Below, piece after piece: positions 27,196 to 62,222 of a DNA stretch of 64,000 nucleotides. The notes beneath the pieces are model-generated. The model saw only the letters and a list, made by a program, of their open reading frames with translations, ran no database searches and was not told the origin of the DNA. Position 1 is the first letter of the stretch; the number at the start of each line of letters is the position of its first letter. Both the position numbers and the translations under genes were made by a program. Origin of the DNA: Acidimicrobiia bacterium (lineage in GTDB: Bacteria > Actinomycetota > Acidimicrobiia > Spongiisociales > ZC4RG35); NCBI GenBank assembly GCA_965203555.1, contig CBDBCY010000004.1, positions 1,057,554-1,121,553 of the forward strand, in the 5' to 3' direction.

Positions 27196-27228
27196 CGCCC
27201 CCTGCCGGTCCCACAATCCAGCCTCTTT

Positions 27229-41160: not shown

Positions 41161-41176
41161 TCGAGAAAGGCATGGA

Positions 41177-42226: not shown

Positions 42227-42312
42227 TCCACCAAGCTCGACCGACCAGGACGATATCCTCGGCGCCTACCGCACCGGGACCGCCGGGTTGAGGAGGAGAG
42301 TCCACACCACCG

Positions 42313-43366: not shown

Positions 43367-43381
43367 TCGCGCCGTGAAGCG

Positions 43382-44266: not shown

Positions 44267-44279
44267 CAGTGGGACAACC

Positions 44280-45129
44280 ATGACCACCGCGCCCGCGCCC
44301 ATGCCGCACTTCAACACCCGCTCGATCGGGCGGATCACCCTCCGCTGGGTGGGCATCACCGGCCTCCTCGCCTTCCTGGTGGCGCCCATGGTGCCCCTTT
44401 TCATCTGGTCGATCAGCTTCCGGTGGTTCTATCCCGAACATCCTCCCCAGCGAGTACTCCGCACGCGCCTGGGAACAGGTGATCTCGCCCACCAACAACG
44501 TGATCGGCGCCGCCTGGCAGACCACCCTGATCGCCCTGTTGGTGACCGTCCTCTCGGTCCTCTTCGGAGTCCCCGCCGGCCGCGCCCTGGGCCTCTACAA
44601 CTTCCCCGGAAAGCGCATAGTCGAGATCATGATCCTCGCTCCCATCATCGTCCCCGGCCTGGCGGTGGTGCTCGGCATCGACACCATGTTCATCCGCTAC
44701 GGCCTGTCGGGGAACATCATCGGAGTCTCCCTGGTGCACCTGGTGCCCACCCTCCCCTACATGACGCTGGTGATGTCGGGGGTGTACGCCAACTACGACG
44801 TCGACTACGAACTCCAGGCGCGCTCTCTCGGCGCGGGACGCTGGGCCACCCAGCGCTACGTGACCCTCCCGGCGGTCTTCCCCGGAGTGGTGGTGGGCGC
44901 CCTGTTCACCTTCCTGATCTCCTGGAGCCAGTACGTCCTCACCCTCCTGATCGGTGACGGACAGGTGGAGACCCTCCCCATCCTGTTGTTCAATTTCGCC
45001 CGCTCCGAACCCGCCATCGCCGGCGCGCTGAGCGTGGTCTTCATCCTGCCGGGCATACTGGTGCTGCTGCTCAGCTCCAAGTACCTGTCCGGCGACAGCG
45101 CCGCAGTAGGAGGTATCGGCAACATATGA
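44280..45129 (+). pseudogene. ABC transporter permease (PotC-like) interrupted by a single frameshift near 44436
   Basis: The N-terminus (MTTAPAPMPHF…LVAPMVPLFIWSISFRWF) is in one frame. The rest (…PSEYSARAWEQVISPTNNV…LGAGRWATQRYVTLPAVFPGV…) is in the +1 frame of the track ORF 44479..45129. Confidence 0.6.
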
Positions 45130-46202
45130 CCCAAGTGACACTCACCGGACTGACCAAGATCTTCGACCAGAAGAACCCTCCCGCGGTGGACAACCTGGAC
45201 CTGGAGATCGAATCCGGAAAGCTCACCGCCCTCCTGGGACCCTCGGGATGCGGCAAGACCACCACCATGAAGATGATCGCCGGCCTCCTCCGACCCACCT
45301 CGGGAGACATCCTATTCGACGGCGACTCCATCCTCAGCATCAAGCCCGAGGAACGCGGTGCGGTAATGGTGTTCCAGAACTACCTGCTGTTCCCCTACAT
45401 GAACATCGCCGACAACATCGGCTTCGGCCTGAAGATGCGAAAAGTCAACAAAAAAGAGATCAGATCCCGCGTCGAAGACATGCTCGACCTGGTCCAACTC
45501 CCCGGATTCGAGGACCGAAAGCCCAACCAACTCTCGGGAGGACAGCAGCAACGCATCGCCCTGGCCCGCGCGCTGATCGTCGAGCCAAACGTCCTCCTCT
45601 TGGACGAACCACTCTCCAACCTCGACGCACACCTCCGCGACGAGATGCGCGTCCTGATCAGAAGAATCCAGACCGAGATGGGGATCACCACAGTCTTCGT
45701 CACCCACGACCAGGAGGAGGCAGTCGTCCTGGCCGACAAGGTGGCGCTCTTATTCGACGGTCGCCTCCAGCAGTTCGACGGTCCCGACTCCTTCTACGAG
45801 ACACCCAACACAGTCGAGATCGCCACCTTCTTCGGCGGCACCAACTTCATACCCGGCCGGTACCAAAACGGGCAGATCACCACCGCCATCGGCAAGTTCG
45901 CGGCGCCCCACTCACTGGTCCCCGACGGAGAGGCGATACTCAGCATCCGCCCCGAAGCGGTCGACCTGGGCGCGGCAGGGGAGAACAGCGTAGAAGGGAC
46001 CGTCCTATCCCACGTCTACGCCGGACGCTACGCGCGCTTCCAGGTACGGATCGGCGACACCGAGATCGAAGCGGTCACCGAACCCGGACAGGTCAAGTTG
46101 TTCGCCGACGGAGACAATATCCCGGTGAAGTTCGATCCCGAAAAGATCTGGATCCTGGGACCCAACGCCGCAGAGCAACAGGCCGCCGATTCCACCGGAT
46201 AG
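45126..46202 (+). CDS. ABC transporter ATP-binding protein (PotA/MalK-type importer ATPase)
   Basis: Walker A GPSGCGKTT, Q-loop, LSGGQQQRIALARAL, Walker B LLLDEPLSNLD, H-loop, and a C-terminal TOBE-like domain. Confidence 0.9.
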   Translation: MTQVTLTGLTKIFDQKNPPAVDNLDLEIESGKLTALLGPSGCGKTTTMKMIAGLLRPTSGDILFDGDSILSIKPEERGAVMVFQNYLLFPYMNIADNIGFGLKMRKVNKKEIRSRVEDMLDLVQLPGFEDRKPNQLSGGQQQRIALARALIVEPNVLLLDEPLSNLDAHLRDEMRVLIRRIQTEMGITTVFVTHDQEEAVVLADKVALLFDGRLQQFDGPDSFYETPNTVEIATFFGGTNFIPGRYQNGQITTAIGKFAAPHSLVPDGEAILSIRPEAVDLGAAGENSVEGTVLSHVYAGRYARFQVRIGDTEIEAVTEPGQVKLFADGDNIPVKFDPEKIWILGPNAAEQQAADSTG

Positions 46203-46206
46203 GCGG

Positions 46207-47430
46207 TTGACCCGCCCCGGCTCCGAAAACGGGTCCCCACCAATCGGACACCAAACCCGATGGGGCCTGATCGCCGCCGGATGGTCGGTCTACGCCATCT
46301 ACTACCTGGGCAGGGTCAACTTCTCGGTAGCGGTACCCGGACTCGAGGACGAAGCCGGCCTCGACGCCACCAGGATCGGCACCCTGGCAGCCGGATTCTT
46401 CTGGGTCTACTCCCTCTCCGCAGTACCTGTTGGGCGCCTAGCCGACCGGATCGGCGCACGCCTCCTGGTGGGGCTGGGCCTGGTGGGAAGCGGGCTGATG
46501 AACGTCCTGTTCATCCTGTTCATCGAGAACTTTGCGCTGTCGCTGGTCGTATGGTCGGCCAACGGGATCTTCCAGGCCATGGGATGGACGCCACTGATCG
46601 GCGCGGTGGGGCGCTGGGCATCCGACAGGGGCGCCGCTCGGGTGATCGCCTCCTTTGGCTCCTGCTTCGTCGCCGGGACCGCTCTCACCTTCGCCTTGGG
46701 GGGACTCATTATCGAACGTGGCGGAGTCGAAGCCGTGTTCATCGCCGCAGCCACCGTGCTGATACCGGTCGGCATCGCCTGGTGGATCGGGGTACGAGAT
46801 CCGATCGAGACATCTTCTGAGGCCGAGCAACCCGGTGGCTCGACTGGACAAGCACTCTGGCTCCTCCCCCCGGCAGCAGCCATCGGAGCCGCCTATGTTG
46901 CGCTGGTGGTCTGGACACCCGCCTACTTCGTCGAAGTTCACAACGAGGCGGTGGGCCGCTCCGGCTTGCTCGCTGCAGCCATGCCCGCTTTCGCCATCCT
47001 GGCCACAATCACTGTGGGGCGCTGGTTTCGAGACGCCATCGGACCGGGTTCCGCCCTGAAGGGCGGTCTGGTCCTGGGAGTCACCTCGGTTGCTCTAGGC
47101 ATGGTTAGCCAGGCTGACGATCTCTTGGCGGGATTCGCCACAGTCGCCATCGCCACTGCGCTGGTAGGCGCGTCCTCCTCGATCGTCCTAGGCCTGTTCC
47201 CTAGGATGACATCACCCGAAGGCGTGGCACTGGTCAGCGGCATTTACGCACTGGGCTTTAACCTGGGGGGCGGTGCAGGCTCACCGGTGGTGGGCAGGTT
47301 GGTGGATCAGGATGCCTGGGATGGGGTGTTCCTGTTCCTCGCCGGTGTGGTCCTGGTCGGTGCAATCTGGACGGTCGGCTGGTATGTCTGGGCCCGATCC
47401 CACATGCCGACAGAAAGGCTCGCCTCATGA
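46207..47430 (+). CDS. MFS transporter
   Basis: ~12 predicted TM helices and a …GRLADRIGAR… MFS motif-A-like loop. Confidence 0.75.
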   Translation: MTRPGSENGSPPIGHQTRWGLIAAGWSVYAIYYLGRVNFSVAVPGLEDEAGLDATRIGTLAAGFFWVYSLSAVPVGRLADRIGARLLVGLGLVGSGLMNVLFILFIENFALSLVVWSANGIFQAMGWTPLIGAVGRWASDRGAARVIASFGSCFVAGTALTFALGGLIIERGGVEAVFIAAATVLIPVGIAWWIGVRDPIETSSEAEQPGGSTGQALWLLPPAAAIGAAYVALVVWTPAYFVEVHNEAVGRSGLLAAAMPAFAILATITVGRWFRDAIGPGSALKGGLVLGVTSVALGMVSQADDLLAGFATVAIATALVGASSSIVLGLFPRMTSPEGVALVSGIYALGFNLGGGAGSPVVGRLVDQDAWDGVFLFLAGVVLVGAIWTVGWYVWARSHMPTERLAS

Positions 47431-48215
47431 CCGATCGCCCTTCGAAGCACCGGGCGGTAATGGACCTCAGCCGTGAGGAGTGGCTGGATGCGCTGGGCAT
47501 GGACGCCGCGGACATCCCGAAGGCTGTCATCATGGAAGGTTCCTGGTGGCGAGCGCAACGCACAGAGTGGCGTCTGAGCTACCTGGACGACGTGCGGGAA
47601 CTCGCCTTTCCCGACATGTTCTACGGATTCTGGCAAGGGTCACCGGTTGTGTACTCCTGCGTCTACGGAGCACCCAGAGCTGTTGAATTGGCGCACCTGT
47701 TCGGAGTGCTGGGGACATCCCGGATGGTCATGATCGGCACGTGCGGCGCCCTGGATCCCGGATTGGCTACCGGCGACGTGGTCGTACCTTCGCAAGCGGT
47801 GGCTCGGGAAGGGGTTGCTCACCTTTACCAAGACGTGGCGGAAGACACCGGAGTCGTCTTCTCCGACCCGGATCTCACCCGAAGGGGAAAGGCCGCCCTA
47901 GAGAACAGAGGAGTCAGGACTGCCGACTCCCTGCATCTGACATGGAGTTCCATCTTCGCTCAGAGCGGAGCCATGGTCGAGGAGTGGCGGGAAAGGGGCT
48001 ACGGATCCGTGGACATGGAAGCCGCCACTCTCTTCGCCGTAGCGAGACACTTCCAATTCGCCGCCACGGCTCTGCTGGTGGTGTGGGACCAACTAGCCGC
48101 CGACCGCAGCTTCCTCGACCCCCTCACCCCAACAGAACAAAGCCATCTTCATACAGCAAACGCGGCTGTTCATAAAGTTGCTCTAGAAATAGCAATCGAC
48201 TCTGCTACCGATTGA
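47427..48215 (+). CDS. Nucleoside phosphorylase (PNP/UDP phosphorylase superfamily)
   Basis: …VMIGTCGALDPGLATGDVVVPSQAV…, …GSVDMEAATLFAVA… is the PNP_UDP_1 fold. ATGA overlaps the MFS gene. Confidence 0.8.
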   Translation: MTDRPSKHRAVMDLSREEWLDALGMDAADIPKAVIMEGSWWRAQRTEWRLSYLDDVRELAFPDMFYGFWQGSPVVYSCVYGAPRAVELAHLFGVLGTSRMVMIGTCGALDPGLATGDVVVPSQAVAREGVAHLYQDVAEDTGVVFSDPDLTRRGKAALENRGVRTADSLHLTWSSIFAQSGAMVEEWRERGYGSVDMEAATLFAVARHFQFAATALLVVWDQLAADRSFLDPLTPTEQSHLHTANAAVHKVALEIAIDSATD

Positions 48216-48353
48216 AGGCTGTAGGTGTGAACCACCCTCCAAGGCTTAGTGTCCACACTGCCGAGTATCTGGCAACCCCCAGCTGAAATCCGAAGGGGCT
48301 TATCTCCAGATGCGACCCAGGGTCTCTATCATTGTTAATATAAACTGTCCACA

Positions 48354-49322
48354 ATGTCCCATGACGCCTCTAATGGTCCCACACACGATGGCAATCTGGC
48401 AACATCCTCTGGCCGGTATGCACAACGTGCCCTTGCCTGCTACGCACAAGGTGACTGGGAGGGCTTTGTTGTCAATGCCTGTACCGCCGTGGAGTTGCTA
48501 GCCAAAGCGGTTCTTGCAAAGGTAAATATTCTGCTGATAGCAGATTGTAGAGAGAAGAGCCTTTTAGAACTAGCGTTAAGCAATCCTAGACGAGGATTTC
48601 CAACTTCGGCCCGAACAATCGGCATCGGGGCGTGCCTCAGCCGCATCAACGCGATCGGAGTGAGGTTGGACTACCGGGACGAGGTGCTGGCTTTATCCAA
48701 GATGCGTAACAGTTTGCTACATAGTGGACATTATGACCCTGATGCTGTGGATGAATCTCTACTAAGGGTTTGGGTGAGTGCATTAGTCCAACTCGCTGAT
48801 CACGGTCAATACGGCAGATCCATGATCTTCGGGGTTCACACGGAGTTTGCGGAAACCCAGATTAGCCAACACGAGGATGACTTAGCAGCTCTCCTGGCAA
48901 AGAAGATGGCGGCTGCCCAAAGTCGGTGGCGAGAGCTAGCTGATCTTGACTCGCTCAGCATCCCATTGATGCATGAAGTCCTACTAACCCAGCTTATTGC
49001 CGATAATTCCGTGGATCCAACCATCCAGTGTATGCCCTGCCCCGTCTGTGACATGCCAGCCGGTCTTTTCGGGGAATTTGAACCTGAGCCAGAATATGAC
49101 AGGATCGACGGAGAAATGATGGCTGTTGGTGTTTATCACGAATACGTGCCGGAACAACTCTTCTGTCAAACCTGTCGGTTACACTTGGACTCACGGGAAC
49201 TGGTAGAGCGATCTGGGGTGTTAGACAATTGGGAGGTCTCTGATGATGATCGTGAGCGATGGGATAAGATAGTTGCTGAAGAGGAGCTTTGGAATGACAA
49301 GGAGTGGCGATTCGACTTCTAG
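48354..49322 (+). CDS. Hypothetical protein with HEPN-like R-x4-H motif and C-terminal CxxC…CxxC zinc ribbon (candidate defense gene)
   Basis: First gene of the lower-GC island. KMRNSLLHSG is an Rx4H HEPN-type motif at the end of an alpha-helical ~150-aa N-terminal region. …CMPCPVCDM…(~45 aa)…CQTCRLH has four Cys in ribbon spacing. Confidence 0.55.
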   Translation: MSHDASNGPTHDGNLATSSGRYAQRALACYAQGDWEGFVVNACTAVELLAKAVLAKVNILLIADCREKSLLELALSNPRRGFPTSARTIGIGACLSRINAIGVRLDYRDEVLALSKMRNSLLHSGHYDPDAVDESLLRVWVSALVQLADHGQYGRSMIFGVHTEFAETQISQHEDDLAALLAKKMAAAQSRWRELADLDSLSIPLMHEVLLTQLIADNSVDPTIQCMPCPVCDMPAGLFGEFEPEPEYDRIDGEMMAVGVYHEYVPEQLFCQTCRLHLDSRELVERSGVLDNWEVSDDDRERWDKIVAEEELWNDKEWRFDF

Positions 49323-49704
49323 CCGGAGGACTGTTGAGCGGTGAGGAAGGATACTATTGTCAATGGCATGCAACCCCCGCAGATGCAATGGGATCCGCTT
49401 AACATCAGCCCTCATTGAGGCCTCCTGAATAGGCGACACAGTACCGCCCAACATCAGCGAGGCCTTAACCCCTGAACAAGGACCTCAACCATCCCCACTC
49501 CCCAACAATTCGCGAAGCCTCGATTCGCTAAGTCGCACAATCCACACAGAGGTATGGTGAACACAGCGTCCGCTCCGAAGGACAGAACACCGGCTGAGGG
49601 ACTAGGCGCTTTGCGAGTTCTTCGGATAGGAGTAAGGGGAGGCTGCGCGTTTCCATTACCGTCAGGCCCACCGCCGTCTCCAAGACCATCGACCGGACTG
49701 AGGC

Positions 49705-51918
49705 CTAAAAGGGATCCTCATAGTCGCTGTACCCACCCCGCATTTTCTCCCCTGCCGAATCCCTTCTTGCAAAGACACGACCTTCCCATTTTGCGCAAAT
49801 CTCCTCGAAGTTCGGTACCTTCTCCTCTTCGACCCAACTCTTGTACATCTGCGGATTGATGCTTTGCGGCACTGGATACGCTTCCCTAATGAGAGCTAAC
49901 GAAGGGATTTGTATACATTGCCCTAGCACCAAAGCGGTACGAGAGGGTAAGGTAGGAAGCTGATCAAGAAGTTCCGAATAGATGTTAGGAACTATCGCAC
50001 GAAAGTAGTGGAGATCTGCAGGGTTCTGCAATCGATGGACGATAAAACTATTGCATTGCGCCAGAACCGTGCGTGAGAGTTCGCTGGGTCGTTGAGAGGC
50101 TATTACCAATCCCAATCCACACTTTCTGCCCTCTCTGGCAATGCGTTCAAATATCTCCTTTGAAATAGAATCTTCCTCTGCTCGGCCAGTTTCCCGTATA
50201 TAATTGTGCGCTTCATCGAGGATCAGGACGACTGGATAATCTCCTCTCTCGACACCACTGATCGGATCAGAGAGTCGCTGCAGGAATTCGTGAATGAGCC
50301 GACCCAGAAGGGCTGTAACATTCTCAAGTGCTTCCGTAGCAAGAAGGCTCAAATCAACGATCACCACATTAGACCCGGATGATCCCTGCCGCTGCCGTTT
50401 GTAAAAGGGAAATACTTCCGGGGAAAGGGTGCAGGTGCCAATGCTGTGATCATTATCCCGAGAGCTAGCGCCGAGAATATCCCGCAAAAAGGTAGCCAAG
50501 GCATGCTCTACCTGTGGCCATTCGCTATCTGTCGGACCAAAGAGAAAGTCAAACCGGGAGTCTGCCAGGAGTCTATATATCCGCAATAGCATTGTAGAAC
50601 AATAGTCTCGGGTTCGAGGGGAATAGGCCTCGCTGCTAGCGAGAGCATCTTCGAGATACAGATCGCGAAAATCGCTCTTACTGAAGAATCTGGGGCTGTC
50701 CACAGAGGCGGCACCTCGGTGACCAGTCAACTGAGGAACACCCGCCAACTCCATAATCAAGGATTGAGCCACTTGGTTCACTTCTTGTCTAAGAGCCATA
50801 GTCAACGGATCGTAATCGCGGTCGCTCCTCCTTCTCACCTTCTTTCGTAGCTCGTGGAGTGTCTCCACTACCTCCTCTTGCAATATTGTTGGGTAGTGAC
50901 TAAGCAGTTCTCCAAGTGCACCGGCATTACCTGGGTCCTGTAGATAGGAAACAATCCCCTTGCACAATACGTCAATGGTGTTTCTTTCTTGCCATCGCCC
51001 CTCTCTTGCTGCAGTCATCATGCGTTGGCACTCTATCCGTAAGTCTTCTCTTAGTTTAACCCATGTTGGACTCTCTCCAGATTCCCGCGCGGCGGTGAGA
51101 GCTTCTAGCAACACTGGCTGCTGTACCCCCGGTGACGCTCGGAACAACCGTACAAAGTCGTCGGCGTTCATGAACCAGTATGGTATCGCCAGTTTGTCAG
51201 ATGCATCTGCGGCCGTGGGAATGTATAGAGTCTTATAGGACTCATGCACATCTGTCCAAGAGCCTTGTGGACTCCGTCGTTGGAAAGCGGAACGGTATTC
51301 GCCGTGTGTGTCAAAAATAATAAACCTGGTTTGCTTGACTGCGGGCGTATGCAGAATTGCTTGTATGATCGAAGAGATAGTACAGGACTTTCCGGAGCCG
51401 GTGCTACCGAGAACAGCGGCATGCATGCCAAAGAAGGCATCTACGTCAATGTTGATTGCGTATTCCGGGAAGACAGCGGAGCGACCAATGGACAAATGAG
51501 AATCGCCTCCCAAGGGAAAGCCTGGTTCAATGGCTCTTTGGAATATCGCATCAAGATCCTGCTGTGTTGGCATGAGAACAGGAGAATCCAGCACAGGATG
51601 GCTGCTAATGCCTTGCTGATAGATTCCTTCTTCAACAACGCCAGTCATTACTCCTCGTAGCATCTTCCTAGCGGACGGCAGGTGCACCGTATTGCCAGCA
51701 GCAGTAGCGCTTCCATCCTCCTTCACATAAAGGCGAGTAACAATAGCTACATTGCGATGTCCACCCACCGGAATGACGACATAGGAGTTTATATGCCCGG
51801 CATCCTTGGTCCCTTCAATCGTTGAACGAGTAAAACTCTTGAGATCGCTCTCTAGAGCTACCGTCACTTGTGCGGCATCTACGGCGACGACTCTACCGAT
51901 CCTGTAATCATCCATCAT
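49705..51918 (-). CDS. herA: HerA-like FtsK/HerA-superfamily ATPase of a Sir2-HerA defense pair
   Basis: Walker A GSTGSGKS, Walker B VVLILDEAHNY, …LVIASQRPSEL… (arginine-finger region). 737 aa, immediately downstream (14 bp) of the SIR2 gene on the same strand. Confidence 0.85.
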   Translation of the reverse strand: MMDDYRIGRVVAVDAAQVTVALESDLKSFTRSTIEGTKDAGHINSYVVIPVGGHRNVAIVTRLYVKEDGSATAAGNTVHLPSARKMLRGVMTGVVEEGIYQQGISSHPVLDSPVLMPTQQDLDAIFQRAIEPGFPLGGDSHLSIGRSAVFPEYAINIDVDAFFGMHAAVLGSTGSGKSCTISSIIQAILHTPAVKQTRFIIFDTHGEYRSAFQRRSPQGSWTDVHESYKTLYIPTAADASDKLAIPYWFMNADDFVRLFRASPGVQQPVLLEALTAARESGESPTWVKLREDLRIECQRMMTAAREGRWQERNTIDVLCKGIVSYLQDPGNAGALGELLSHYPTILQEEVVETLHELRKKVRRRSDRDYDPLTMALRQEVNQVAQSLIMELAGVPQLTGHRGAASVDSPRFFSKSDFRDLYLEDALASSEAYSPRTRDYCSTMLLRIYRLLADSRFDFLFGPTDSEWPQVEHALATFLRDILGASSRDNDHSIGTCTLSPEVFPFYKRQRQGSSGSNVVIVDLSLLATEALENVTALLGRLIHEFLQRLSDPISGVERGDYPVVLILDEAHNYIRETGRAEEDSISKEIFERIAREGRKCGLGLVIASQRPSELSRTVLAQCNSFIVHRLQNPADLHYFRAIVPNIYSELLDQLPTLPSRTALVLGQCIQIPSLALIREAYPVPQSINPQMYKSWVEEEKVPNFEEICAKWEGRVFARRDSAGEKMRGGYSDYEDPF

Positions 51919-51932
51919 GGAAGCTGGCGTTT

Positions 51933-53336
51933 CTACTGCTTGTCTCTGGATAGCGCCATTTTGTTGTAAGTCTGGACGACCTTCAGGGAAAGCTCTTCTT
52001 CCCGCAAATTGGGTAGCAGTGTGTCAACAAACGCATCAAAATGCCCCAGTGTCCCGCTCACAATCCATACTCGCTCATCCTTTAGCTCTTCCAGACTCGC
52101 CACAAATTCGCTCCGAGGATTAGGATCTACCACAACCAAGGTGAAGCTTGGGATTGCCAAAGCTTGACGTATTTGCGCGTTAACATGTTCGTCCCCAAAT
52201 CCGTAGCCTACAACCACCAGTGTTGATTGCGGTTGGGCAACAGCATTACCAAACCTCCGAAACATCTCCGAGTAGGGCAACCCCAAAGACTGGCCATACT
52301 TCAGCGGTGATGGGTAGATAAGCACGTCTTTATCCTCTGTTGATTCACCATATAGGGTCGCATAGAGTCCAAAAGGATTCAACCACGATGCCTCACAGCT
52401 GTGCCAATTAATGGACCCATGAAGCTTATACAGTTGTATTACCCTGTCATAGCGATGAACTCGCCCTTCAGTGGTCTGGGCGGGAAAGTAGAAGTCTATA
52501 TCATAGGACTCTGGCCTGAACACGCGGCGTAGTGTTCCGACAAAGCCATCCATCATAATCACTCCTTCAGCATCACCTGCTTGTTCAATGAGCGTATCAT
52601 AATTGAGTGTAAACAGATGAGTGCGACGCAGATTGAGGGGTCGGGTCAGAAGCTTCCTTAGTAGCAAACGATGAGTGCGGAGACTACCCTCTTTAGCAGG
52701 CACCGGTAAATCAAGCAAACGCGTTAGAGTATCCTCAATAGTCCTGATCAATGTTGCCAATACGCATTTGTTAATGTGGATGTATTCCTCATTGCACAAA
52801 ACTAGAGTGTCCGTTGATGTGAGCATACTAGCCGACCATGTGTGCAGTAGGCTCAAGAGGTGTTCTAAATTCAACGGGATGGGCTCAACCGAAGTATCCG
52901 AGGATGGACACTCCGTGCTCCGCTCTTCAAATGACAAGTCCTGTCCAGTAAGAATGGAAGCTACCTTATAGAAGAGGTCAAGCCAATCCGGCATGGAATC
53001 AGACGACCGCGGCATCCCTGCTCTTTGAATCAGATGCTTTTCCAATGGCCAAGGTATTGCAGCAAGCGATACACCACCGGCATCAATGGAAGCCCCTGCG
53101 CCCAATAGAAAGGACACATTTTCGGTCTTTAGGATCGTGCCAAATCGAACACGCATCCGCTTGAGAGTGTTCTCAAGAGCTGCTTGGGCCACCGTTGCTT
53201 GGGCTTCGTCCTCTGGATCTAAGGGGTTGAGGGCGTCCAGAGCCTGGCTTATGATGTCATCCTTGCCTAGCAGGATCCGGGAATCAGTGTAAGGAAGTGC
53301 TGACTTGTGGTTCATTGTTTCGCCGCGCGGAGTCAT
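51933..53336 (-). CDS. SIR2-family NADase-like protein of a Sir2-HerA defense pair
   Basis: FLLGAGASIDAGG (SIR2 GAGxS NAD-binding loop), LYKLHGSINW (catalytic His), VVGYGFGDEHVN (GYSFxD motif). An alternative start at 53315 (MNHKS) is possible. Confidence 0.85.
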   Translation of the reverse strand: MTPRGETMNHKSALPYTDSRILLGKDDIISQALDALNPLDPEDEAQATVAQAALENTLKRMRVRFGTILKTENVSFLLGAGASIDAGGVSLAAIPWPLEKHLIQRAGMPRSSDSMPDWLDLFYKVASILTGQDLSFEERSTECPSSDTSVEPIPLNLEHLLSLLHTWSASMLTSTDTLVLCNEEYIHINKCVLATLIRTIEDTLTRLLDLPVPAKEGSLRTHRLLLRKLLTRPLNLRRTHLFTLNYDTLIEQAGDAEGVIMMDGFVGTLRRVFRPESYDIDFYFPAQTTEGRVHRYDRVIQLYKLHGSINWHSCEASWLNPFGLYATLYGESTEDKDVLIYPSPLKYGQSLGLPYSEMFRRFGNAVAQPQSTLVVVGYGFGDEHVNAQIRQALAIPSFTLVVVDPNPRSEFVASLEELKDERVWIVSGTLGHFDAFVDTLLPNLREEELSLKVVQTYNKMALSRDKQ

Positions 53337-54014
53337 AGGATTTCGTTACGGAAGGATACCAATGGAGGTGATGAGGCAAGCGTATTTTGGGAATTTGGGA
53401 TGTAAGTGGGGAGTGCCACTGGACGGCGCGCAGGTAGAATCAACCGAATCGACGTCGCATGGCGGCGTGGTCACGGGTCTTTGATCTAATCGACACCCGA
53501 TGGTACGGATACCTGAGCGAAAGTGTCGTGGAGAGCTGGACCCACTCCCATCTCATCCCGCCAAGAGAGCGGCACTTGTGTGAGGTGCTCGCCAAGGGGA
53601 ACGCCAGGGTCACAGCGGAGGCTTAACCAGGTCGCGAATCCTTCCCGCACCGACTCAGCAGAACGGTGGCAACAGGGCAAACCCCACCCTCTCAGACCGA
53701 CCAAGTCAAGGTATCACCCTTGTCAACCTCCCCCCTGGCAACATCAGGTGGAAGGGGGAAGTGCACCCTTTGGTTGGTCACGCCGAGATGAACGACAACG
53801 TGGTTAAGGTCACAAACGCAGAGAAATCTGAACCACTCCGAGTGTCCGGAGGTGCAGCCCTTGGGAGGTGCAGCCCTTGGGAGATCCAGCTTAGGGAAAG
53901 ACAAGAAGAAACGTTAGCCGGAAGTCCGCTAGAGGGCTGTTCGGTTGATGTTCGTTGGTAAGCGCGAGCGTCGGTAGCAGTGGGCGGCGATTCATTGATC
54001 ACCGAGAAGGCGGG

Positions 54015-57000
54015 ATGTTGTCTGAAACCCTGCGTAAGTGGGTTGTCAGTCAGAATGCGAGTGCCTTGCCAGATCCAGCGGGGCCATGCTCAGTTTTCGC
54101 CGATACTTGGTGGAGAGCAGACATTAGGGTTCATCGAGTCTCCCGAGCCAGCCTATGGATGTCACACCCGGTAGGTAATCTGGCAGGGGAACGCATCAGA
54201 GGAGGACCATCCCAAGTGCAGTTGGAAGACCTAGCGCCCGGAACGGTGGTGGATGGATTGGTTGTGGGCGAGCGGGCTACCGTGGTGGCGGTCGATTGGC
54301 ATGGTGCGGGCACCGTCCAGGTGGTTTACCGAACGTTCCAAGGTGTCTCGGAGAGACTGCTCTCCCGGGCCGATGAGGCCCGTCTGTCGGTTGCCACCGA
54401 AGAGCGACCCTGGACGCTCGATGCGCCGGGGCACGCATTCAAGCTTGCCTCGGAGGCGCACCGCATCCAGCTGGCGCATCTGTTCGACCCCTACCTGGCT
54501 GTCCAGGGATCCAACATCGATCCTCTCCCGCACCAGATCGAGGCGGTATATCAGGAGATGCTTCCCCGTCAGCCGCTCCGGTTCCTTCTGGCTGATGATC
54601 CGGGAGCAGGCAAAACGATCATGTCGGGACTCCTGATCCGAGAATTGGATATACGAGGAGACGCCGACCAGGTGCTAATCGTGGCTCCGGGATCGTTGGT
54701 GGAACAGTGGCAGGAGGAACTTCATCAGAGATTCCACCTCTCTTTCGACATCTTCTCCCGTGACATGGTGGAGGCGGCTCGTACGGGCAATCCCTTCAAG
54801 GAACGCTCCCGCTTGATCGCTCGTCTAGATCAGTTGGCCAGAAACGAGGAACTGCAGGAACGGCTGAAGGCCTCAGAGTGGGACCTGGTGGTGGTCGATG
54901 AGGCTCACAAGATGTCTGCTCACCTCTATGGCCAAAAGCTGGAGAAGACCAAACGCTATCGGGTGGGAGAGATCCTCAGGGCCATTACTCGCCACTTTCT
55001 GCTGCTTACCGCCACCCCGCACAACGGTAAGGAAGAAGAATTTCACCTTTTCCTGGCCCTACTGGACCCCGACCGATTCGAGGGACGGTTAAAGGGAGAG
55101 GCCATTCCCGATTACTCCGATGCTATGCGCCGCTACGTAAAGGAGAAACTTCTCACCTTCGACGGTCGCCGCCTGTTCCCGGAGCGATTTGCTATCTCGG
55201 CCCAATACGAACTGTCGCTACCGGAGCAGGAGCTCTACGAGGCGGTCACGTCCTATGTGCGGATAGGCATGAACCGGGCCAAGCAGATGGAAGAGGGTGG
55301 TGATCGCCGGCGGGGATTGGCCGTGGGCTTTGCTTTGGCCGCTCTGCAAAGAAGATTGGCCTCATCCCCACAAGCCATCCATAGGTCTCTAGAGCGCCGA
55401 CGGGATCGCTTGAACAAGCGGCTCGATGAAATGAGAGACATCGCCGAGGGGAAAGCAGTTCCCAAAACCTCCACCAAGTCCGCAAAGCGAACGATCAACT
55501 TCGACGATTTCGACTTCGACGACTTCCGCGATGATGAGTTGGAGGAAATCGAAGACGCAGTCATCGACCAGGAAACCGCCGCCCGCACTATCCCAGAACT
55601 GGAAATAGAAATCTCCCAGCTCGCAGACCTAGAGAAAAAGGCTGCCCGATTGCGGGGTTTGAAGACCGACCGCAAATGGGAAGAGCTCCGGTCAATCCTC
55701 CACTCCGAAGAGATGACCTCTGCCAATGGTGTGGCTCGCAAGATCATCATCTTCACCGAACACCGGGACACGCTCGAGTACTTGGTGGCACGGATCGGAA
55801 CTCTGATAGGACGCTCCGAGGCGGTGGGATGGATACACGGTGGGATGAAGCGACACGACCGCCGCCGAGTCCAGCATGCCTTCGTCAACGATCCCAATCT
55901 GCGAGTGCTGGTGGCAACCGACGCTGCCGGAGAGGGAGTGAACCTACAACGAGCAAACCTGATGGTGAATTACGACCTCCCTTGGAATCCCAACCGTATC
56001 GAACAGCGTTTCGGTCGCATCCACCGGATCGGGCAGACGGAGGTTTGTTACCTGTGGAACCTGGTGGCACACGAAACGCGGGAAGGCGCGGTCTTCCATC
56101 GATTGTTCGAGAAGATCGAACAGCAACGGAAGGCGCTGGGCGGCCAGGTGTACGATGTGCTGGGTGACTCGATGATCGGGAAGTCCCTACGAGAGCTTCT
56201 GATCGAGGCGATCCGCTACGGGGACGATCCCAAAGTGAAAGCAAAGCGGGACGAAGTGATCGACGCCGATGTGGGCGAGCGCCTGCGGGACCTGGTGGAA
56301 CACCAGCAACTCGCTGAGGGGTGGATGGGGATAGACAAACTGTCCGACATTCGGGATGAGATGGAACGAGCCAGAGTCCGAAAGCTCCAGCCTGGATTCA
56401 TCCAAGCCTTCTTCATCGACGCCTTTCGCTTGCTACGTGGACGGATCCCCGAACGGGAGAAGAACCGATTCCAGATCACCCGCGTACCCCAGGGGCTCCG
56501 GGCCGACCCCTTGACCACCGTAGCCCGGGAATACGAGAGAGTCACCTTCGAACCCAGCCTGGAGACCGTGGAGGGAAAACCACCCGCTGAAGTCTTGAGC
56601 CCTGGACATCCACTCCTGGATGTGGTCATAGGGGCGATCAGAGCACAGTACGGTCGCTTTTTGCAGACCGGCACGGTGCTGGTTGATCCCGACGACTCGG
56701 GTACTACACCACGGGTCGTGGTGTATCTGGAACATCGGATCACCGATGGCAAACCCGAACGCAATGGTCGCCGTCCGGTGTCTCGACGATATCAGTACAT
56801 AGAGATACCGAAAGATGGGAAGCCCACCAGCGCCGGGCAGGCACCCTATCTGGACTACCGGCCTATCCGTGACGAAGAGCAGTCGATGATTAAGGCATTG
56901 GCTGAGGATGATTGGATCACGACCGCTCTGACGACCACCGCTCAGAGGTATGCCATAGAGCACCTGGCCCAAGTCCACTACCAGGAAGTTTCCCGCATCG

Positions 57001-57269
57001 TCACCACTCGGGTACAGAAGGTGAGAGCAGCGGTGAAGGAACGTTTGAAGAAAGAGATCCGCTACTGGGACGAACGGGTGTACGCCCTCAAGGAAAGGGA
57101 ATTGGCTGGCAAATCGACCGGTGGGTTCACCTCCGGGCACGCTCGCAATTTCGCCGACGATCTCGAGGCGCGCCTAGAGCGGCGCAATCGAGAACTCGAC
57201 CAAGAACTTGATCTTTCCAACCTGGATCCACCGGTGGGTTTGGTGGTGTGGGGTGGTGAAATGCTGTGA
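54015..57269 (+). CDS. SNF2-family (COG0553) helicase, C-terminally truncated by IS insertion (BrxHII-like / DUF3883-helicase)
   Basis: N-terminal SH3/Tudor-like region, then helicase motifs LADDPGAGKT (I), DLVVVDEAHK (II), LLLTATP (III), and C-terminal helicase motifs …LVATDAAGEGVNLQ…, …QRFGRIHRIGQ… (VI). The ORF terminates at 57269, exactly at the left IS junction. The track start at 53955 is a TTG, so the ATG at 54015 is preferred. Confidence 0.8.
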   Translation: MLSETLRKWVVSQNASALPDPAGPCSVFADTWWRADIRVHRVSRASLWMSHPVGNLAGERIRGGPSQVQLEDLAPGTVVDGLVVGERATVVAVDWHGAGTVQVVYRTFQGVSERLLSRADEARLSVATEERPWTLDAPGHAFKLASEAHRIQLAHLFDPYLAVQGSNIDPLPHQIEAVYQEMLPRQPLRFLLADDPGAGKTIMSGLLIRELDIRGDADQVLIVAPGSLVEQWQEELHQRFHLSFDIFSRDMVEAARTGNPFKERSRLIARLDQLARNEELQERLKASEWDLVVVDEAHKMSAHLYGQKLEKTKRYRVGEILRAITRHFLLLTATPHNGKEEEFHLFLALLDPDRFEGRLKGEAIPDYSDAMRRYVKEKLLTFDGRRLFPERFAISAQYELSLPEQELYEAVTSYVRIGMNRAKQMEEGGDRRRGLAVGFALAALQRRLASSPQAIHRSLERRRDRLNKRLDEMRDIAEGKAVPKTSTKSAKRTINFDDFDFDDFRDDELEEIEDAVIDQETAARTIPELEIEISQLADLEKKAARLRGLKTDRKWEELRSILHSEEMTSANGVARKIIIFTEHRDTLEYLVARIGTLIGRSEAVGWIHGGMKRHDRRRVQHAFVNDPNLRVLVATDAAGEGVNLQRANLMVNYDLPWNPNRIEQRFGRIHRIGQTEVCYLWNLVAHETREGAVFHRLFEKIEQQRKALGGQVYDVLGDSMIGKSLRELLIEAIRYGDDPKVKAKRDEVIDADVGERLRDLVEHQQLAEGWMGIDKLSDIRDEMERARVRKLQPGFIQAFFIDAFRLLRGRIPEREKNRFQITRVPQGLRADPLTTVAREYERVTFEPSLETVEGKPPAEVLSPGHPLLDVVIGAIRAQYGRFLQTGTVLVDPDDSGTTPRVVVYLEHRITDGKPERNGRRPVSRRYQYIEIPKDGKPTSAGQAPYLDYRPIRDEEQSMIKALAEDDWITTALTTTAQRYAIEHLAQVHYQEVSRIVTTRVQKVRAAVKERLKKEIRYWDERVYALKERELAGKSTGGFTSGHARNFADDLEARLERRNRELDQELDLSNLDPPVGLVVWGGEML

Positions 57270-58908
57270 AGTGCCTCTCTGACCTGGGAGAATAGCTGTT
57301 ACCAAACACGGCTATTTGCCCTGGCAGAGGAGGCACTTCTTGTGAAAATGATAACCAGGTTGGACAGGTTGGAGGTGAGGTTCGACGAGGGGTCGTTGGT
57401 CGCAGACGCGGGTCTGCTACTGGCCGGGAGTTTTTTGTCCCGGTTGGGTGTGGAACAGTTGGTGGACGACACCGTGAACATTCCCGGCAAACAGGGCGGC
57501 GCCCGTCCGGGCCGCAAGATACTGTCGTTGGTGGCGTCGATGCTGCTGGGCGGCACCCATATCGATCATGCCGATCGGCTGCGGTCTGCAGCCACCCGTA
57601 GGGTGCTGCCGTTTCGGGTGATGGCCCCTTTTCACGCTGGGAACGTTTCTTCGTTCTTTCACATGGGGTCATGTCTGCCAGTTGAACAAAGCCTTGGGAC
57701 TGCTGCTGGCCCGGGTCTGGTCCCAGCCGGGCATCGGCCCGGGCGACCGTCCGTTGATTATTGATGTGGACTCCACCATCTGCGAGGTTCACGGCAAGAA
57801 AAAGGAAGGCGCCGTCTACGGTCACACCGGTGTGTTGGGATACCATCCGCTGACGGCGATCGTGTCCGACACCGGCGAGATTGTTCATCATCGCCTGCGG
57901 AAAGGATCCTCGCAGAGAGGAAACACCCGGTTCATGGTGGAGACGGTCAACCGGGTGAGACGGGCCGGAGCGACCGGTACGATCACCGTCCGGGCGGACA
58001 AGGGCTTTTGGTCGGGTAAGACCGTGCAGAAACTGGAGTCCATGGGAGCGGAGTGGTTTATCGGTGTTCGACGATATCCCAACGTTAAACGTGCTATAGA
58101 GAACATAGACAAGGACGATTGGGTGGATATCGGCTACACCCCGGACGGTCAGGCGCAGGTGGCCGAGACCACTATCACCACCAAGATCGACAAAGAAGAA
58201 CACACCCTGCGGGTGGTGGTCAGACGCACCCGCCTCACCGACCGCCAACACCCCCCAGTTGCCGATCTGGTCCGACTGGCGACACCACGCGTTCGCCACC
58301 AGCAACCGTGTCCTCGAAGCGGTGGAAGCCGACAGTATGTACCGCCGTCATGCCTGTGTGGAACTGGGCATCCGCGACCTCAAACACCACGCCGGACTGG
58401 CCCACTGTCCATCAGGGCGGTTCTTCGCCAACGCCGCCTGGATGGCCGCCGCGGTGGCGGCTCACAACCTGTACCGGTGGATCAACCACCACACCGGCGC
58501 AACACCGAAGGGAAAGCTCACCTGCGGTCGCACGGTCCGCACCCGCCTTTTCAACCTGCCCGGAAGAATCGTCAACCACAGCCACAAACTCCTCCTGCGA
58601 CTACCCACCCGCTGGCCATGGGCACACACCTACCACACCGCTCTCAACAGCATCCGCACCCTGCCACAACTCTGCTGAACAACCCCGCCAGCAACCCAAA
58701 CCCTCTATCAGGACTGCATCACCCCGGCTGCCGCATACCCCAAAAGCCCCCCACCGGACCGTTCCCACCCCGCAACCCCACCGACAGACCCCGACCACCG
58801 TCCAAAGAACAAAACCCGCCCGCCAAAACACCAAAAACAAGCCCGATCACACCAACCACACCCACCCAAACCACCCGATCGGTGGATTGAGGTTCCAACC
58901 ATCCGCCT
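57262..58908 (+). mobile_element. IS1380-family insertion sequence (boundaries approximate) with frameshifted transposase
   Basis: The transposase is spread over three frames (57342..57764, 57682..~58260, 58259..58678) with IS1380-like blocks: …DVDSTICEVHGKKKEGAVYGHTGVLGYHPL…, …RADKGFWS…, …RHACVELGIRDLKHHAGLAHCPSGRFFANAAWMAAAVAAHNLYRW…. It is followed by a ~230-bp C/A-rich tail. It interrupts the helicase reading frame between …PPVGLVVWGG and VVGGALIIPQ…. Confidence 0.7.
57342..58678 (+). pseudogene. IS1380-family DDE transposase with two or more frameshifts
   Basis: See the mobile_element entry. Colinear homology needs +1/-1 shifts near ~57690 and ~58255. Confidence 0.65.
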
Positions 58909-59376
58909 GTGGTGGTTGGGGGTGCATTGATCATCCCACAGGGATTGCTCGAAGTTGAGAACCCGACGTTGCCCGTGAACCCGGACAGTCGGGAGGAGAT
59001 CGACCGGCGAGCGGTAGCAGCAGTGATGGCTGCCGAGCGCCGTCTGAGCCGAGAGCCGACCGAGATGGAGCATCACAACCCCGGGTACGACATCGAAAGC
59101 AAATGCCCCGCCACAGGTGACCTGTACTTCATCGAGGTGAAAGGGCGGATCGAAGGAGCCGATGCCATAAGCGTCAAGTCTCGGCAGATCCGCCAAGGTC
59201 TCAACCATCCGCATCGGTTCATTTTGGCTGTCGTGCAGGTGCCATCCGACCCCGATCCTGAGCCAGTCGTGCGCTATGTGCGCCATCCATTCAAAGGTGT
59301 GACTATGCCCTTCAGCACATATTCGGTCAACCTTCCTCTGAAAGAACTGCTAACTCGATCCACGGATCCATCATGA
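58891..59376 (+). pseudogene. Orphaned DUF3883 C-terminal domain of the IS-split SNF2 helicase
   Basis: …HHNPGYDIESKCPATGDLYFIEVKGRIEGAD… is the DUF3883 signature (GYDI.S…IEVKG). The open frame resumes immediately after the IS at 58891. It has no good own start (track calls GTG 58909) and continues the helicase C-terminus (…LVVWGG // VVGGALII…). Confidence 0.65.
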
Positions 59377-59460
59377 CCCAGAGTCGACCGAAGGAGTGCT
59401 TGTTACCCTTCCATGGGGCCTATCCCATACCCTGCCCCGACATCCGTGCGAAGTTACACC

Positions 59461-62214: not shown

Positions 62215-62222
62215 GATAGGAC

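What the first reader, a model, noticed from the sequence alone, without database searches (positions are those of the whole stretch)
49705..53336. Sir2-HerA antiphage module
A SIR2 gene (GAGxS loop, catalytic HGS, GYGFGD motif) is followed, 14 bp later on the same strand, by a HerA/FtsK-family ATPase (Walker A GSTGSGKS, Walker B ILDEAHNY). This is the architecture of the described Sir2-HerA NAD+-depleting abortive-infection system.

This HerA is comparatively long at 737 aa.
Basis: partly seen in the sequence, partly recalled or inferred. Interest (0 to 1): 0.5.

Follow-up and report, generated by a model that had tools for sequence, protein, structure and literature searches.

The report
Sir2-HerA antiphage gene pair, confirmed
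This is a genuine, intact two-gene Sir2-HerA phage-defence module, horizontally acquired by an uncultured Acidimicrobiia bacterium; it belongs to a widespread "long HerA" branch with no studied member, so it is a correct but fairly ordinary call.

Summary
On the minus strand, a SIR2 ORF (51933..53336, 467 aa; the public gene call starts at 53315, 460 aa) is followed after 14 nt by a HerA ORF (49705..51918, 737 aa). All quoted motifs are present. PADLOC's SIR2 and HerA models match both proteins end to end (E 1.8e-79 and 1.9e-141). Solved Sir2-HerA complexes are hit by sequence and fold, and the catalytic Asn/Asp/His of SIR2 and Walker A/B plus SQRP of HerA are intact. In 79 of 80 related loci a SIR2 gene sits directly upstream of the HerA gene, and no third gene is conserved.

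The 737-aa length is normal for this clade (712-773 aa). The extra length is a ~247-aa all-helical insertion between Walker A and Walker B, and it is the most variable structured region. The pair is far below NCBIfam equivalog cut-offs, and HerA is only 17-22% identical to solved HerAs, so this is an uncharacterised divergent branch.

The module has 50% GC in a 64% GC genome, and its nearest relative is 59% identical, so it was acquired horizontally. It lies in a defence island beside an IS-disrupted Hma system and a HEPN/zinc-ribbon gene.

Verdict: supported; new member of a known kind; modest interest.

The parts
51933..53336 (-). SIR2-family NADase effector gene (467 aa as the longest ORF; the public gene call starts at 53315, 460 aa). 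Carries the GAGAS NAD-binding loop (79), catalytic N245/D247 (TLNYD) and H306 (KLHGS), and GYGFGD (377).
   Evidence: ORF; motifs. PADLOC SIR2 PDLC04084 E 1.8e-79 over residues 49-462. Pfam SIR2_2 PF13289 at 44 bits, above its cut-off. PDB matches: Nezha Sir2 8j4u_A 115 bits, S. aureus Sir2 8yhx_G 84 bits, Paenibacillus SIR2 8w9l_A 58 bits. 55-61% identical to the SIR2 genes of related loci, with all motifs invariant. Start codon.
51919..51932 (-). 14-nt spacer between the SIR2 stop and the HerA start. There is no obvious Shine-Dalgarno sequence. In related loci the two genes abut or overlap.
   Evidence: Sequence AAACGCCAGCTTCC. In L001 the genes overlap by 11 nt and in L004 by 1 nt.
49705..51918 (-). 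HerA-type (FtsK/HerA superfamily) hexameric ATPase gene, 737 aa. Layout: N-terminal barrel region (~1-140); RecA-like core split into a Walker A half (~141-265, GSTGSGKS 171-178) and a Walker B half (~513-712, ILDEAH 566-571, SQRP 608-611); a ~247-aa all-helical insertion (~266-512) between them; and a short variable tail (713-737).
   Evidence: ORF; motifs. PADLOC HerA PDLC04102 E 1.9e-141, residues 6-701 onto model positions 9-643 of 654. Pfam DUF87/HerA central domain at 82 bits. PDB HerAs of antiphage complexes 117-190 bits. AF2 model secondary structure. Foldseek top 48 hits are all antiphage HerAs at probability 1.00. Conservation by region.
53337..53954 (.). 618-nt divergent intergenic region between SIR2 and HmaA, presumed to hold the promoter(s) of the SIR2-HerA operon. 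It contains an exact tandem 16-nt duplication (53848-53879). No function has been demonstrated.
   Evidence: Sequence. No sigma-70-like site on the minus strand, and site counts match shuffled expectation. Repeat family D1. No Rfam family here.

Best explanation
A two-gene Sir2-HerA antiphage operon.

Shown here: the operon is intact, has all catalytic motifs, is conserved as a pair, and was acquired horizontally into a defence island.

Inferred from characterised relatives: HerA assembles into a hexameric ATPase ring that docks a 12-14-mer ring of SIR2 through its N-terminal barrel. In uninfected cells the SIR2 NADase is held in check, by autoinhibition and by ATP. On infection a phage cue (phage SSB-type proteins and/or DNA ends in characterised systems) engages HerA. 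ATP turnover and remodelling then release SIR2, which hydrolyses NAD+ using N245, D247 and H306. The infected cell arrests before phage progeny mature (abortive infection).

Specific to this branch, and also inferred: the expanded and poorly conserved ~247-aa helical insertion of HerA is the most likely determinant of trigger or partner specificity.
For: 1. Family assignment. Full-length matches to PADLOC SIR2 (266 bits) and HerA (470.6 bits). The only NCBIfam hit for SIR2 is 'SIR2 family anti-phage-associated protein', and the top two for HerA are 'anti-phage-associated helicase HerA'.

2. Homology to solved complexes, by sequence and by fold. These are E. coli Nezha 8j4u/8su9, S. aureus 8yhx/8yho and Paenibacillus 8w9l/8wiv.

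3. Catalytic residues. N245/D247/H306 match Paenibacillus N163/D165/H212. In HerA, K177, E569 and R610 are invariant in 56 clade members.

4. Linkage. SIR2 lies immediately upstream on the same strand in 79 of 80 related loci from many phyla and one archaeon. The one exception has two recombinase genes in that position. No third gene is conserved.

5. Context typical of defence genes. The module is next to an Hma system: HmaA 1327 bits, HmaB 1027 bits, HmaC 589 bits. It is also next to a HEPN-fold gene. In relatives the pair is often embedded in type I R-M loci or ICEs.

6. Horizontal origin. GC is 0.50 and GC3 0.50-0.51, against 0.64 and 0.75-0.82 in the flank. The nearest HerA is 59% identical, while a host housekeeping protein has dozens of 88-99% relatives in Acidimicrobiia MAGs.

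7. Mechanism in relatives. See PMC11472057, PMC11514289 and PMC13434337.
Against: - No member of this long-HerA branch has been tested.
- Scores are far below the NCBIfam equivalog cut-offs: SIR2 164 against 500; HerA 227 and 202 against 850 and 800. HerA is only 17-22% identical to solved HerAs.
- By sequence, this HerA is slightly closer to HerAs that partner a DUF4297 nuclease (190, 184 and 162 bits) than to SIR2-partnered HerAs (158, 119 and 117 bits). Details of coupling may therefore differ.
- Characterised subtypes already differ in mechanism, using helicase/nuclease in one case and nickase in another.
- No recognisable promoter or Shine-Dalgarno sequence was found, and expression in this host is unknown.
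- The adjacent HmaA is IS-disrupted, which shows the island is subject to decay.
- The AF2 model of HerA is only moderate (pLDDT 64), with the N-terminal barrel unresolved.
Confidence: 0.82

Rival explanations
1. Same family, different wiring. The pair is a Sir2-HerA system whose primary antiviral output or gating differs from Nezha. Examples would be nickase-first gating as in E. coli type III, a nuclease-like coupling inherited from the DUF4297-type HerA lineage, or a trigger read by the enlarged helical insertion. This overlaps with the best explanation rather than excluding it.
For: HerA scores higher against DUF4297-partnered HerAs (9c1m 190, 8ziq 184, 8xau 162 bits) than against SIR2-partnered ones (158, 119, 117 bits). 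The helical insertion is about 100 aa longer than in 9c1m, and it is the least conserved structured region (0.54 overall, 0.33-0.43 at residues 301-390, against 0.82-0.96 in the cores). E. coli subtypes only 13-22% identical to each other already differ in activities and are not interchangeable.
Against: Nothing in the sequence identifies a nuclease or nickase site. The score differences among HerA lineages are small. SIR2 has a complete NADase active site and is the invariant partner.
Confidence: 0.3
2. A silent or decaying passenger. The genes are intact by sequence but not expressed or not functional in this host, that is, recently acquired foreign DNA in an eroding defence island.
For: GC3 of 0.50 against 0.75-0.82 in host genes implies poor codon adaptation. 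No promoter-like site or Shine-Dalgarno sequence was detected upstream. The neighbouring HmaA is split by an IS element whose own transposase lies in three reading frames.
Against: Both ORFs are full-length, with no frameshifts or premature stops, and every catalytic and clade-invariant residue examined is kept. The sigma-70 consensus scan is not informative for an actinobacterial genome.
Confidence: 0.1
3. Not defence: a HerA-type DNA translocase used for DNA repair (HerA-NurA-like), conjugation or secretion (VirB4/TraC/FtsK-like), with SIR2 acting as a housekeeping sirtuin deacetylase.
For: HerA belongs to the FtsK/HerA superfamily. There are weak local hits to FtsK_SpoIIIE, TrwB, EccC and VirB4-like models, and 108-111 bits to the archaeal repair HerA models.
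Against: Those hits cover only the Walker A or Walker B segments, or score far below their cut-offs (800-970). No NurA, Mre11/Rad50 or T4SS genes are adjacent. SIR2 matches SIR2_2 (PF13289), the defence-type family, and not the classical sirtuin model. The partner is SIR2 in 79 of 80 loci, and neighbours are defence genes or mobile elements.
Confidence: 0.03

Closest known systems
E. coli Sir2-HerA / Nezha (PDB 8J4U, 8SU9 and related entries)
   Same: Two-gene operon with SIR2 first and HerA second. It is the best PDB match for the SIR2 protein (115 bits, core residues 214-408 plus the GAGAS loop) and shares the TxNYD, KLHGS, YP..KY and GxGFGD motifs. HerA has the same fold (Foldseek probability 1.00).
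   Different: Nezha HerA is 610 aa and only about 18% identical (117 bits), and Nezha Sir2 is 415 aa. Here SIR2 has a longer N-terminus and a non-alignable ~120-aa region (95-213), and HerA carries a much larger helical insertion. NCBIfam equivalog cut-offs are missed by a wide margin.
Paenibacillus sp. 453MF SIR2-HerA (PDB 8W9L, 8WIV, 8WLD; PMC11472057)
   Same: The catalytic triad N163/D165/H212 aligns to N245/D247/H306. HerA has a barrel, a RecA-like core and a helical-bundle domain inserted in the core (aa 228-396 there). The complex is required for NADase activation.
   Different: Paenibacillus HerA (696 aa) owes its length to a C-terminal arm domain (576-696) that is absent here, where only a 25-aa tail follows residue 712. 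Here the length comes from the helical insertion (~247 aa against ~169 aa). SIR2 similarity is weak (58 bits).
DUF4297-HerA (HerA-DUF) antiphage system (PDB 8XAU/8XAV, 9C1M, 8ZIQ; PMC11291478)
   Same: These HerAs are the best sequence and fold matches for the window's HerA (190, 184 and 162 bits; Foldseek E ~2e-16). They have the same ATPase-plus-effector supramolecular logic.
   Different: The effector there is a Cap4-like DUF4297 nuclease. Here, and in 79 of 80 relatives, it is a SIR2 NADase, and no DUF4297 gene is present. Those HerAs are 571-617 aa.
E. coli Sir2-HerA types I-III (PMC13434337, 2026)
   Same: They show that Sir2-HerA is a family of deeply divergent subtypes (13-22% identity) that all give abortive-infection-like protection. 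Type III is triggered by phage SSB (Gp2.5) and gated by ATP.
   Different: The best plasmid-borne relatives of this HerA reach only about 32% identity.

Membership tests
Sir2-HerA antiphage system | Effector with a SIR2_2-type NADase domain carrying the catalytic Asn/Asp/His and the GAGxS NAD-binding loop | tested here: met
   PF13289 at 44.2 bits against a cut-off of 24.5. GAGAS at 79, N245, D247 and H306. Aligned to Paenibacillus N163/D165/H212. Invariant in relatives.
Sir2-HerA antiphage system | HerA-clade FtsK/HerA ATPase with Walker A, Walker B and the SQRP arginine-finger motif | tested here: met
   GSTGSGKS at 171, ILDEAH at 566, ASQRP at 607. K177, E569 and R610 are invariant in 56 relatives. 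PADLOC HerA 470.6 bits full length. Foldseek to antiphage HerAs at probability 1.00.
Sir2-HerA antiphage system | The two genes are adjacent and co-directional, and the pairing is evolutionarily conserved | tested here: met
   14-nt spacer. SIR2 directly upstream in 79 of 80 related loci. No conserved third gene.
Sir2-HerA antiphage system | Scores reach NCBIfam equivalog cut-offs (SIR2_antiphage NF042942; HerA_antiphage NF042943/NF042944) | tested here: not met
   164 against 500; 202 against 800 and 227 against 850. These equivalogs describe narrower subfamilies, so the pair is a divergent branch and not an equivalog of the modelled ones. PADLOC's broader model set covers it end to end.
Sir2-HerA antiphage system | Assembly of a HerA hexamer with a SIR2 12-14-mer supramolecular complex | not testable with these tools
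   Only monomer prediction was available. The HerA N-terminal barrel, which is the SIR2-docking surface in PMC11472057, was modelled at pLDDT 25-40.
Sir2-HerA antiphage system | Infection-dependent NAD+ depletion and an abortive-infection phenotype | not testable with these tools
   This needs experiments. It is known only for distant relatives.
DUF4297-HerA (HerA-DUF) system | HerA partnered with a DUF4297 / Cap4-like nuclease | tested here: not met
   The partner is SIR2. No DUF4297 hit was found for any neighbouring ORF scanned. HerA similarity alone is highest to this family.
HerA-NurA DNA-end-resection machinery | An adjacent NurA nuclease (often with Mre11/Rad50) and an equivalog-level match to repair HerA | tested here: not met
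   No such ORFs flank the pair. NF040937 and NF040819 score 108-111 bits against cut-offs of 800-970.
Conjugative or secretion ATPases (VirB4/TraC, TraB, FtsK, EccC) | A full-length match to those families, plus T4SS/T7SS neighbours | tested here: not met
   Only 40-80-residue local hits around Walker A or Walker B, E 1e-3 to 4e-7, tens of bits against cut-offs of 325-1566. There are no secretion genes nearby.
Other SIR2 defence systems (Thoeris ThsA, DSR1/DSR2, SIR2-APAZ/pAgo) | SIR2 fused to SLOG with a ThsB partner; or a ~1000-aa single-protein DSR; or an adjacent short pAgo | tested here: not met
   The protein is 460-467 aa with no extra Pfam domain. The neighbours are HerA and HmaA. PADLOC Aga_SIR2 models score only 58-64 bits, against 266 for the top SIR2 model.

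The most novel reading that the evidence does not exclude
The 'long-HerA' Sir2-HerA branch has more than 880 relatives across many bacterial phyla and at least one archaeal MAG, and no characterised member. It may be a mechanistically distinct subtype. Its enlarged, rapidly diverging ~247-aa helical insertion (fixed in length at 245-254 aa but only 33-54% conserved) would act as the phage-trigger sensor or specificity module. Its HerA chassis, which is closest to nuclease-partnered HerAs, would have been re-coupled to a SIR2 NADase by effector exchange.
Probability: 0.25. Interest if true: 0.5.

Novelty: new member of a known kind. Interest (0 to 1): 0.28.

Why it matters
The practical value is mostly correct annotation. 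This is a bona fide NAD+-depleting abortive-infection module in an uncultured Acidimicrobiia lineage, and it marks a composite defence island: a HEPN/zinc-ribbon gene, Sir2-HerA, and an IS-disrupted Hma system.

Its modest wider value is that it represents a large, phylogenetically widespread Sir2-HerA branch with no studied member. That branch shows effector exchange on a HerA chassis, since the HerA is nearest to DUF4297-type HerAs while the SIR2 is nearest to Nezha's. It also points to a variable helical insertion as a candidate specificity element. This could guide the choice of new Sir2-HerA subtypes for trigger-recognition studies.

Tried and rejected
- Third component. I tested whether the convergent 322-aa gene (48354..49322) belongs to the system. 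It shares the module's low GC, but its relatives are never next to SIR2 or HerA, and no other third gene is conserved across 83 loci. Rejected.
- Island boundaries. I looked for direct repeats or att-like sites flanking the module. Only short two-copy matches at chance level were found (for example 15 nt with 13/15 identity at 49345 and 53350), and there is no tRNA in the window. Nothing usable.
- Promoter and terminator scan of 49200-54100. Counts equal the shuffled expectation and there is no minus-strand promoter-like site upstream of SIR2. Uninformative.
- Exact-sequence look-up of the window's HerA on contigs to name the source record. It is not on record. The genome-contig scan did not return the source genome itself. 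The host was instead placed through a housekeeping protein.
- Supplementary sequences of E. coli types I-III are not held, so assignment to those types could not be tested.
- Plasmid search. There are no close relatives; the maximum is about 32% identity.
- Rfam. Nothing lies within the module.
- The AF2 model of HerA reached only pLDDT 64, with the N-terminal 138 residues unresolved. Foldseek TM-scores are low (0.33-0.40), although the E-values and the ranking are unambiguous.
Full report
**1. Observation**

The window holds two adjacent minus-strand ORFs exactly at the stated coordinates: 51933..53336 (467 aa) and 49705..51918 (737 aa). They are separated by 14 nt, AAACGCCAGCTTCC.
- SIR2: GAGAS (residue 79), TLNYD (N245, D247), KLHGS (H306), GYGFGD (377).
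- HerA: Walker A GSTGSGKS (171), Walker B ILDEAHNY (566), ASQRP (607).

The 467-aa SIR2 is the longest reading. The public gene call uses the second ATG at 53315 (460 aa), because the 460-aa sequence is in the protein collection and the 467-aa one is not. Relatives do not decide between the two starts.

**2. Family assignment**

- PADLOC's SIR2 and HerA models match end to end. SIR2 PDLC04084 gives E 1.8e-79 over residues 49-462. HerA PDLC04102 gives E 1.9e-141, with residues 6-701 on model positions 9-643 of 654.
- Pfam gives SIR2_2 (PF13289) and the HerA central domain DUF87, both above their cut-offs.
- NCBIfam's only SIR2 hit is 'SIR2 family anti-phage-associated protein', and the two best HerA hits are 'anti-phage-associated helicase HerA'. 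All are far below equivalog cut-offs: 164 against 500, and 227 and 202 against 850 and 800.
- Conjugative, secretion and FtsK models touch only the Walker A or Walker B segments. Archaeal repair HerA models reach 108-111 bits against cut-offs of 800-970.

**3. Comparison with solved structures**

SIR2 matches three solved proteins: the Sir2 of E. coli Nezha (8j4u/8su9, 115 bits), of S. aureus (8yhx, 84 bits) and of Paenibacillus sp. 453MF (8w9l, 58 bits). The Paenibacillus paper names N163, D165 and H212 as catalytic residues. By the alignment, N163 and D165 correspond to N245 and D247 here, and H306 lies in the shared KLHGS motif. The second refutation condition, loss of the catalytic His or Asn, is therefore also not met.

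HerA matches only antiphage HerAs at the top:
- DUF4297-partnered: 9c1m (190 bits), 8ziq (184 bits), 8xau (162 bits).
- SIR2-partnered: Paenibacillus 8wiv (158 bits), S. aureus 8yho (119 bits), Nezha 8j4u_M (117 bits).

An AF2 model of HerA (pLDDT 64, with the N-terminal 138 residues poorly resolved) retrieves the same set by Foldseek at probability 1.00, E 2e-16 to 1e-11 and 17-22% identity.

So this SIR2 is nearest to Nezha's, while this HerA is marginally nearer to nuclease-partnered HerAs. That pattern suggests effector exchange on a HerA chassis. The score differences are small, so I treat this as a suggestion and not a result.

**4. The 'long' HerA**

The first 120 homologs (54-59% identity) are all 712-773 aa. 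In a 56-sequence alignment the median length is 732 aa. The length is therefore a clade property and not an anomaly.

Against 9c1m, the N-terminal block (query 99-262 to chain 79-229) and the C-terminal block (514-712 to 383-581) align. That leaves about 251 aa in the query against about 153 aa in the chain between them. The AF2 model shows this segment (~266-510) as about ten helices at pLDDT 75-88. It is thus an enlarged version of the helical-bundle domain that sits inside the RecA-like core of Paenibacillus HerA (aa 228-396). Paenibacillus HerA reaches 696 aa differently, through a C-terminal arm (576-696) that is absent here.

Within the clade the insertion has a nearly fixed length (245-254 aa). 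It is the least conserved structured region:

| Region | Mean pairwise column identity |
|---|---|
| N-terminal barrel | 0.82 |
| RecA half with Walker A | 0.74 |
| Helical insertion, overall | 0.54 |
| Helical insertion, residues 301-390 | 0.33-0.43 |
| RecA half with Walker B | 0.86 |

This makes it the obvious candidate for a specificity or sensor element. That is inference only.

**5. Is the pair a conserved unit?**

A scan of species-representative genomes with the clade alignment returned 79 loci from Spirochaetota, Burkholderiales, Deltaproteobacteria, Nitrospirota, Acidobacteriota, Planctomycetota, Bacteroidota, Bacillota, Actinomycetota and one archaeal MAG. Four metagenomic loci were added.

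tblastn with the window's SIR2 finds a SIR2 gene directly upstream of HerA, on the same strand, in 79 of the 80 loci that have enough upstream sequence. The exception, L036 from Alloprevotella, has two tyrosine-recombinase genes in that position.

Clustering of the immediate neighbours shows no conserved third gene:
- Downstream, the largest cluster is a Fic-domain protein (8 of 67 loci), followed by a cluster of ~1000-aa proteins that I read as type I restriction HsdR (4 loci; not confirmed by a family scan).
- Upstream, the largest cluster appears to be a type I R-M specificity (HsdS-like) subunit (11 of 59 loci; also not confirmed by a family scan).

The functional unit is therefore the two-gene pair, frequently nested in other defence loci or mobile elements. 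One example is an ICE with an integrase, TrwC and a coupling protein in L004.

**6. Genomic setting and origin**

The module and the convergent 322-aa gene have GC 0.50-0.51 and GC3 0.50-0.52. The left flank has GC 0.64 and GC3 0.68-0.82, and the Hma genes have GC 0.58.

A housekeeping protein from the flank, an 833-aa dimethylglycine-oxidase-like enzyme, has dozens of relatives at 88-99% identity. Those that carry names are Acidimicrobiia or Actinomycetia MAGs, and several sit on 2-3 Mb contigs. The best HerA relative anywhere is only 59% identical, and the best on plasmids about 32%. The host is thus an uncultured Acidimicrobiia bacterium, and the module is a lineage-specific and compositionally un-ameliorated horizontal acquisition from an unsampled donor.

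Immediately divergent from SIR2 lies an Hma system:
- HmaA (53955..57269, 1327 bits) is split by an IS. Its C-terminal NOV_C/DUF3883-like end resumes at 58909..59376, with the HMM positions continuing at 1015-1172.
- HmaB is at 59413..62214 (1027 bits).
- HmaC runs from 62223 off the window end (589 bits).

This is a typical defence island.

**7. Mechanism**

Shown here:
- An intact operon.
- Complete NADase and ATPase active sites.
- Obligate SIR2-HerA pairing across relatives.
- Defence-island context.
- A foreign origin.

Inferred from characterised relatives:
- A HerA hexamer docks a two-layer SIR2 ring.
- SIR2 is autoinhibited and/or ATP-inhibited until infection.
- Phage cues (SSB-type proteins and DNA ends in E. 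coli type III) and ATP turnover release the NADase.
- NAD+ collapse aborts the infection.

Because E. coli subtypes that are 13-22% identical already differ (helicase/nuclease in one, nickase in another) and their HerAs are not interchangeable, the gating details for this branch remain open.

**8. Rivals**

- A silent or decaying passenger (0.10). Poor codon match, no detectable promoter or Shine-Dalgarno sequence, and a decaying neighbour argue for it. Fully intact ORFs and motifs argue against it.
- A non-defence role in repair, conjugation or as a classical sirtuin (0.03). This is contradicted by HMM coverage, by the partners and by the neighbours.
- 'Same family, different wiring' (0.30). 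This overlaps with the best explanation.

**9. Novelty and score**

Sir2-HerA is a described and structurally characterised system, and PADLOC already models this branch. The finding is therefore a correct identification of a new member of a known kind. The residual interest lies in three points: the branch is large, widespread and uncharacterised; its HerA has an enlarged variable helical insertion; and the HerA and SIR2 affinities point to different characterised systems. Interest is 0.28.

**10. Other observations**

The 322-aa neighbour is a HEPN-fold protein with a zinc ribbon:
- RNxxxH and four Cys are invariant.
- The AF2 model has pLDDT 83.
- The family has no Pfam model but has 508 cluster representatives at E ≤ 1e-10.

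This and further items are listed under 'noticed in passing'.

Noticed in passing
[not shown]
   Followed up: yes
window 53955..57269, 58909..59376, 59413..62214, 62223..64000 (+): A complete Hma (helicase-methylase-ATPase) defence system lies divergent from SIR2: HmaA 1327 bits, HmaB 1027 bits, HmaC 589 bits. HmaA is split by an IS insertion into a 1104-aa N-terminal ORF and a 155-aa C-terminal NOV_C/DUF3883-like ORF (HMM positions 2-1016 and 1015-1172), so the system is probably inactivated. HmaC carries an N-terminal Swt1-like HEPN domain (PF18731, 70.6 bits) and runs off the window end.
   Followed up: yes
window ~57232..58877: An IS element of about 1.65 kb of the DDE_Tnp_1_4 type (which I read as IS1380-like), bounded by imperfect 23-nt inverted repeats (57232-57254 and 58855-58877). 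Its transposase is spread over three reading frames (57342..57764, 57682..58890, 58259..58678), so it is frameshifted or degenerate. The Rfam 'Actinobacteria sRNA Ms_IGR-7' hit (57222-57341, 48.3 bits against a gathering score of 45) lies on its left end and probably reflects an IS terminal sequence rather than an independent sRNA.
   Followed up: partly
window 2790..2889 (-), within ORF 2389..4008 (-): A marginal Rfam PYLIS_3 (pyrrolysine insertion sequence, mttB) hit at 38.8 bits against a gathering score of 38. It lies inside an uninterrupted 539-aa MttB-family ORF (PF06253, 733 bits) with no in-frame stop, so this is most likely a non-pyrrolysine MttB homologue and the hit reflects coding-sequence similarity. 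The neighbours are RACo (3914..6022), a dimethylglycine-oxidase-like protein (7704..10205) and an OpuAC-domain glycine-betaine-binding protein (15660..17861), which suggests a glycine-betaine demethylation cluster.
   Followed up: partly
window 53848..53879: An exact tandem duplication of a 16-nt unit (GGAGGTGCAGCCCTTG x2), with a third 81% copy at 53757-53772, in the 618-nt SIR2/HmaA divergent intergenic region. Its function is unknown; it could be an operator or a remnant of a recombination junction.
   Followed up: no
window 1..64000 (GC blocks: 1-48215; 48216-53336; 53337-64000): There are three compositional blocks: the host backbone at GC 0.64, the HEPN/ZnR + HerA + SIR2 block at 0.50-0.51, and the Hma + IS block at 0.58-0.61. 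This implies at least two separate acquisitions stacked at one site. The window contains no tRNA and no integrase ORF was seen among those examined (not systematically screened), and the right boundary lies beyond the window.
   Followed up: partly
L001 10214..11263, and likewise L002, L003, L043, L063, L069, L083, L086: A Fic-domain gene (349-500 aa) follows HerA on the same strand in 8 of 67 related loci. In L001-L003 it overlaps the HerA stop by 4 nt. It may be an accessory third gene in some sub-branches. It is absent from the window.
   Followed up: partly
L008, L011, L014, L017, L018, L024, L027, L058, L060, L069, L070 (upstream); L014, L017, L024, L040 (downstream): In many relatives the SIR2-HerA pair is inserted within or next to type I restriction-modification loci. 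An apparent HsdS-like gene lies upstream in 11 of 59 loci, and a ~1000-aa apparent HsdR-like gene lies downstream in 4. Both labels were read from the sequences and not confirmed by a family scan. This is a recurring nesting of one defence system inside another.
   Followed up: no
L036 2117..4666 (-), 5001..7106 (+): This is the only related locus with upstream room but no SIR2. Two tyrosine-recombinase-like genes sit where SIR2 would be, leaving an orphan 701-aa HerA. It is probably a disrupted system.
   Followed up: partly
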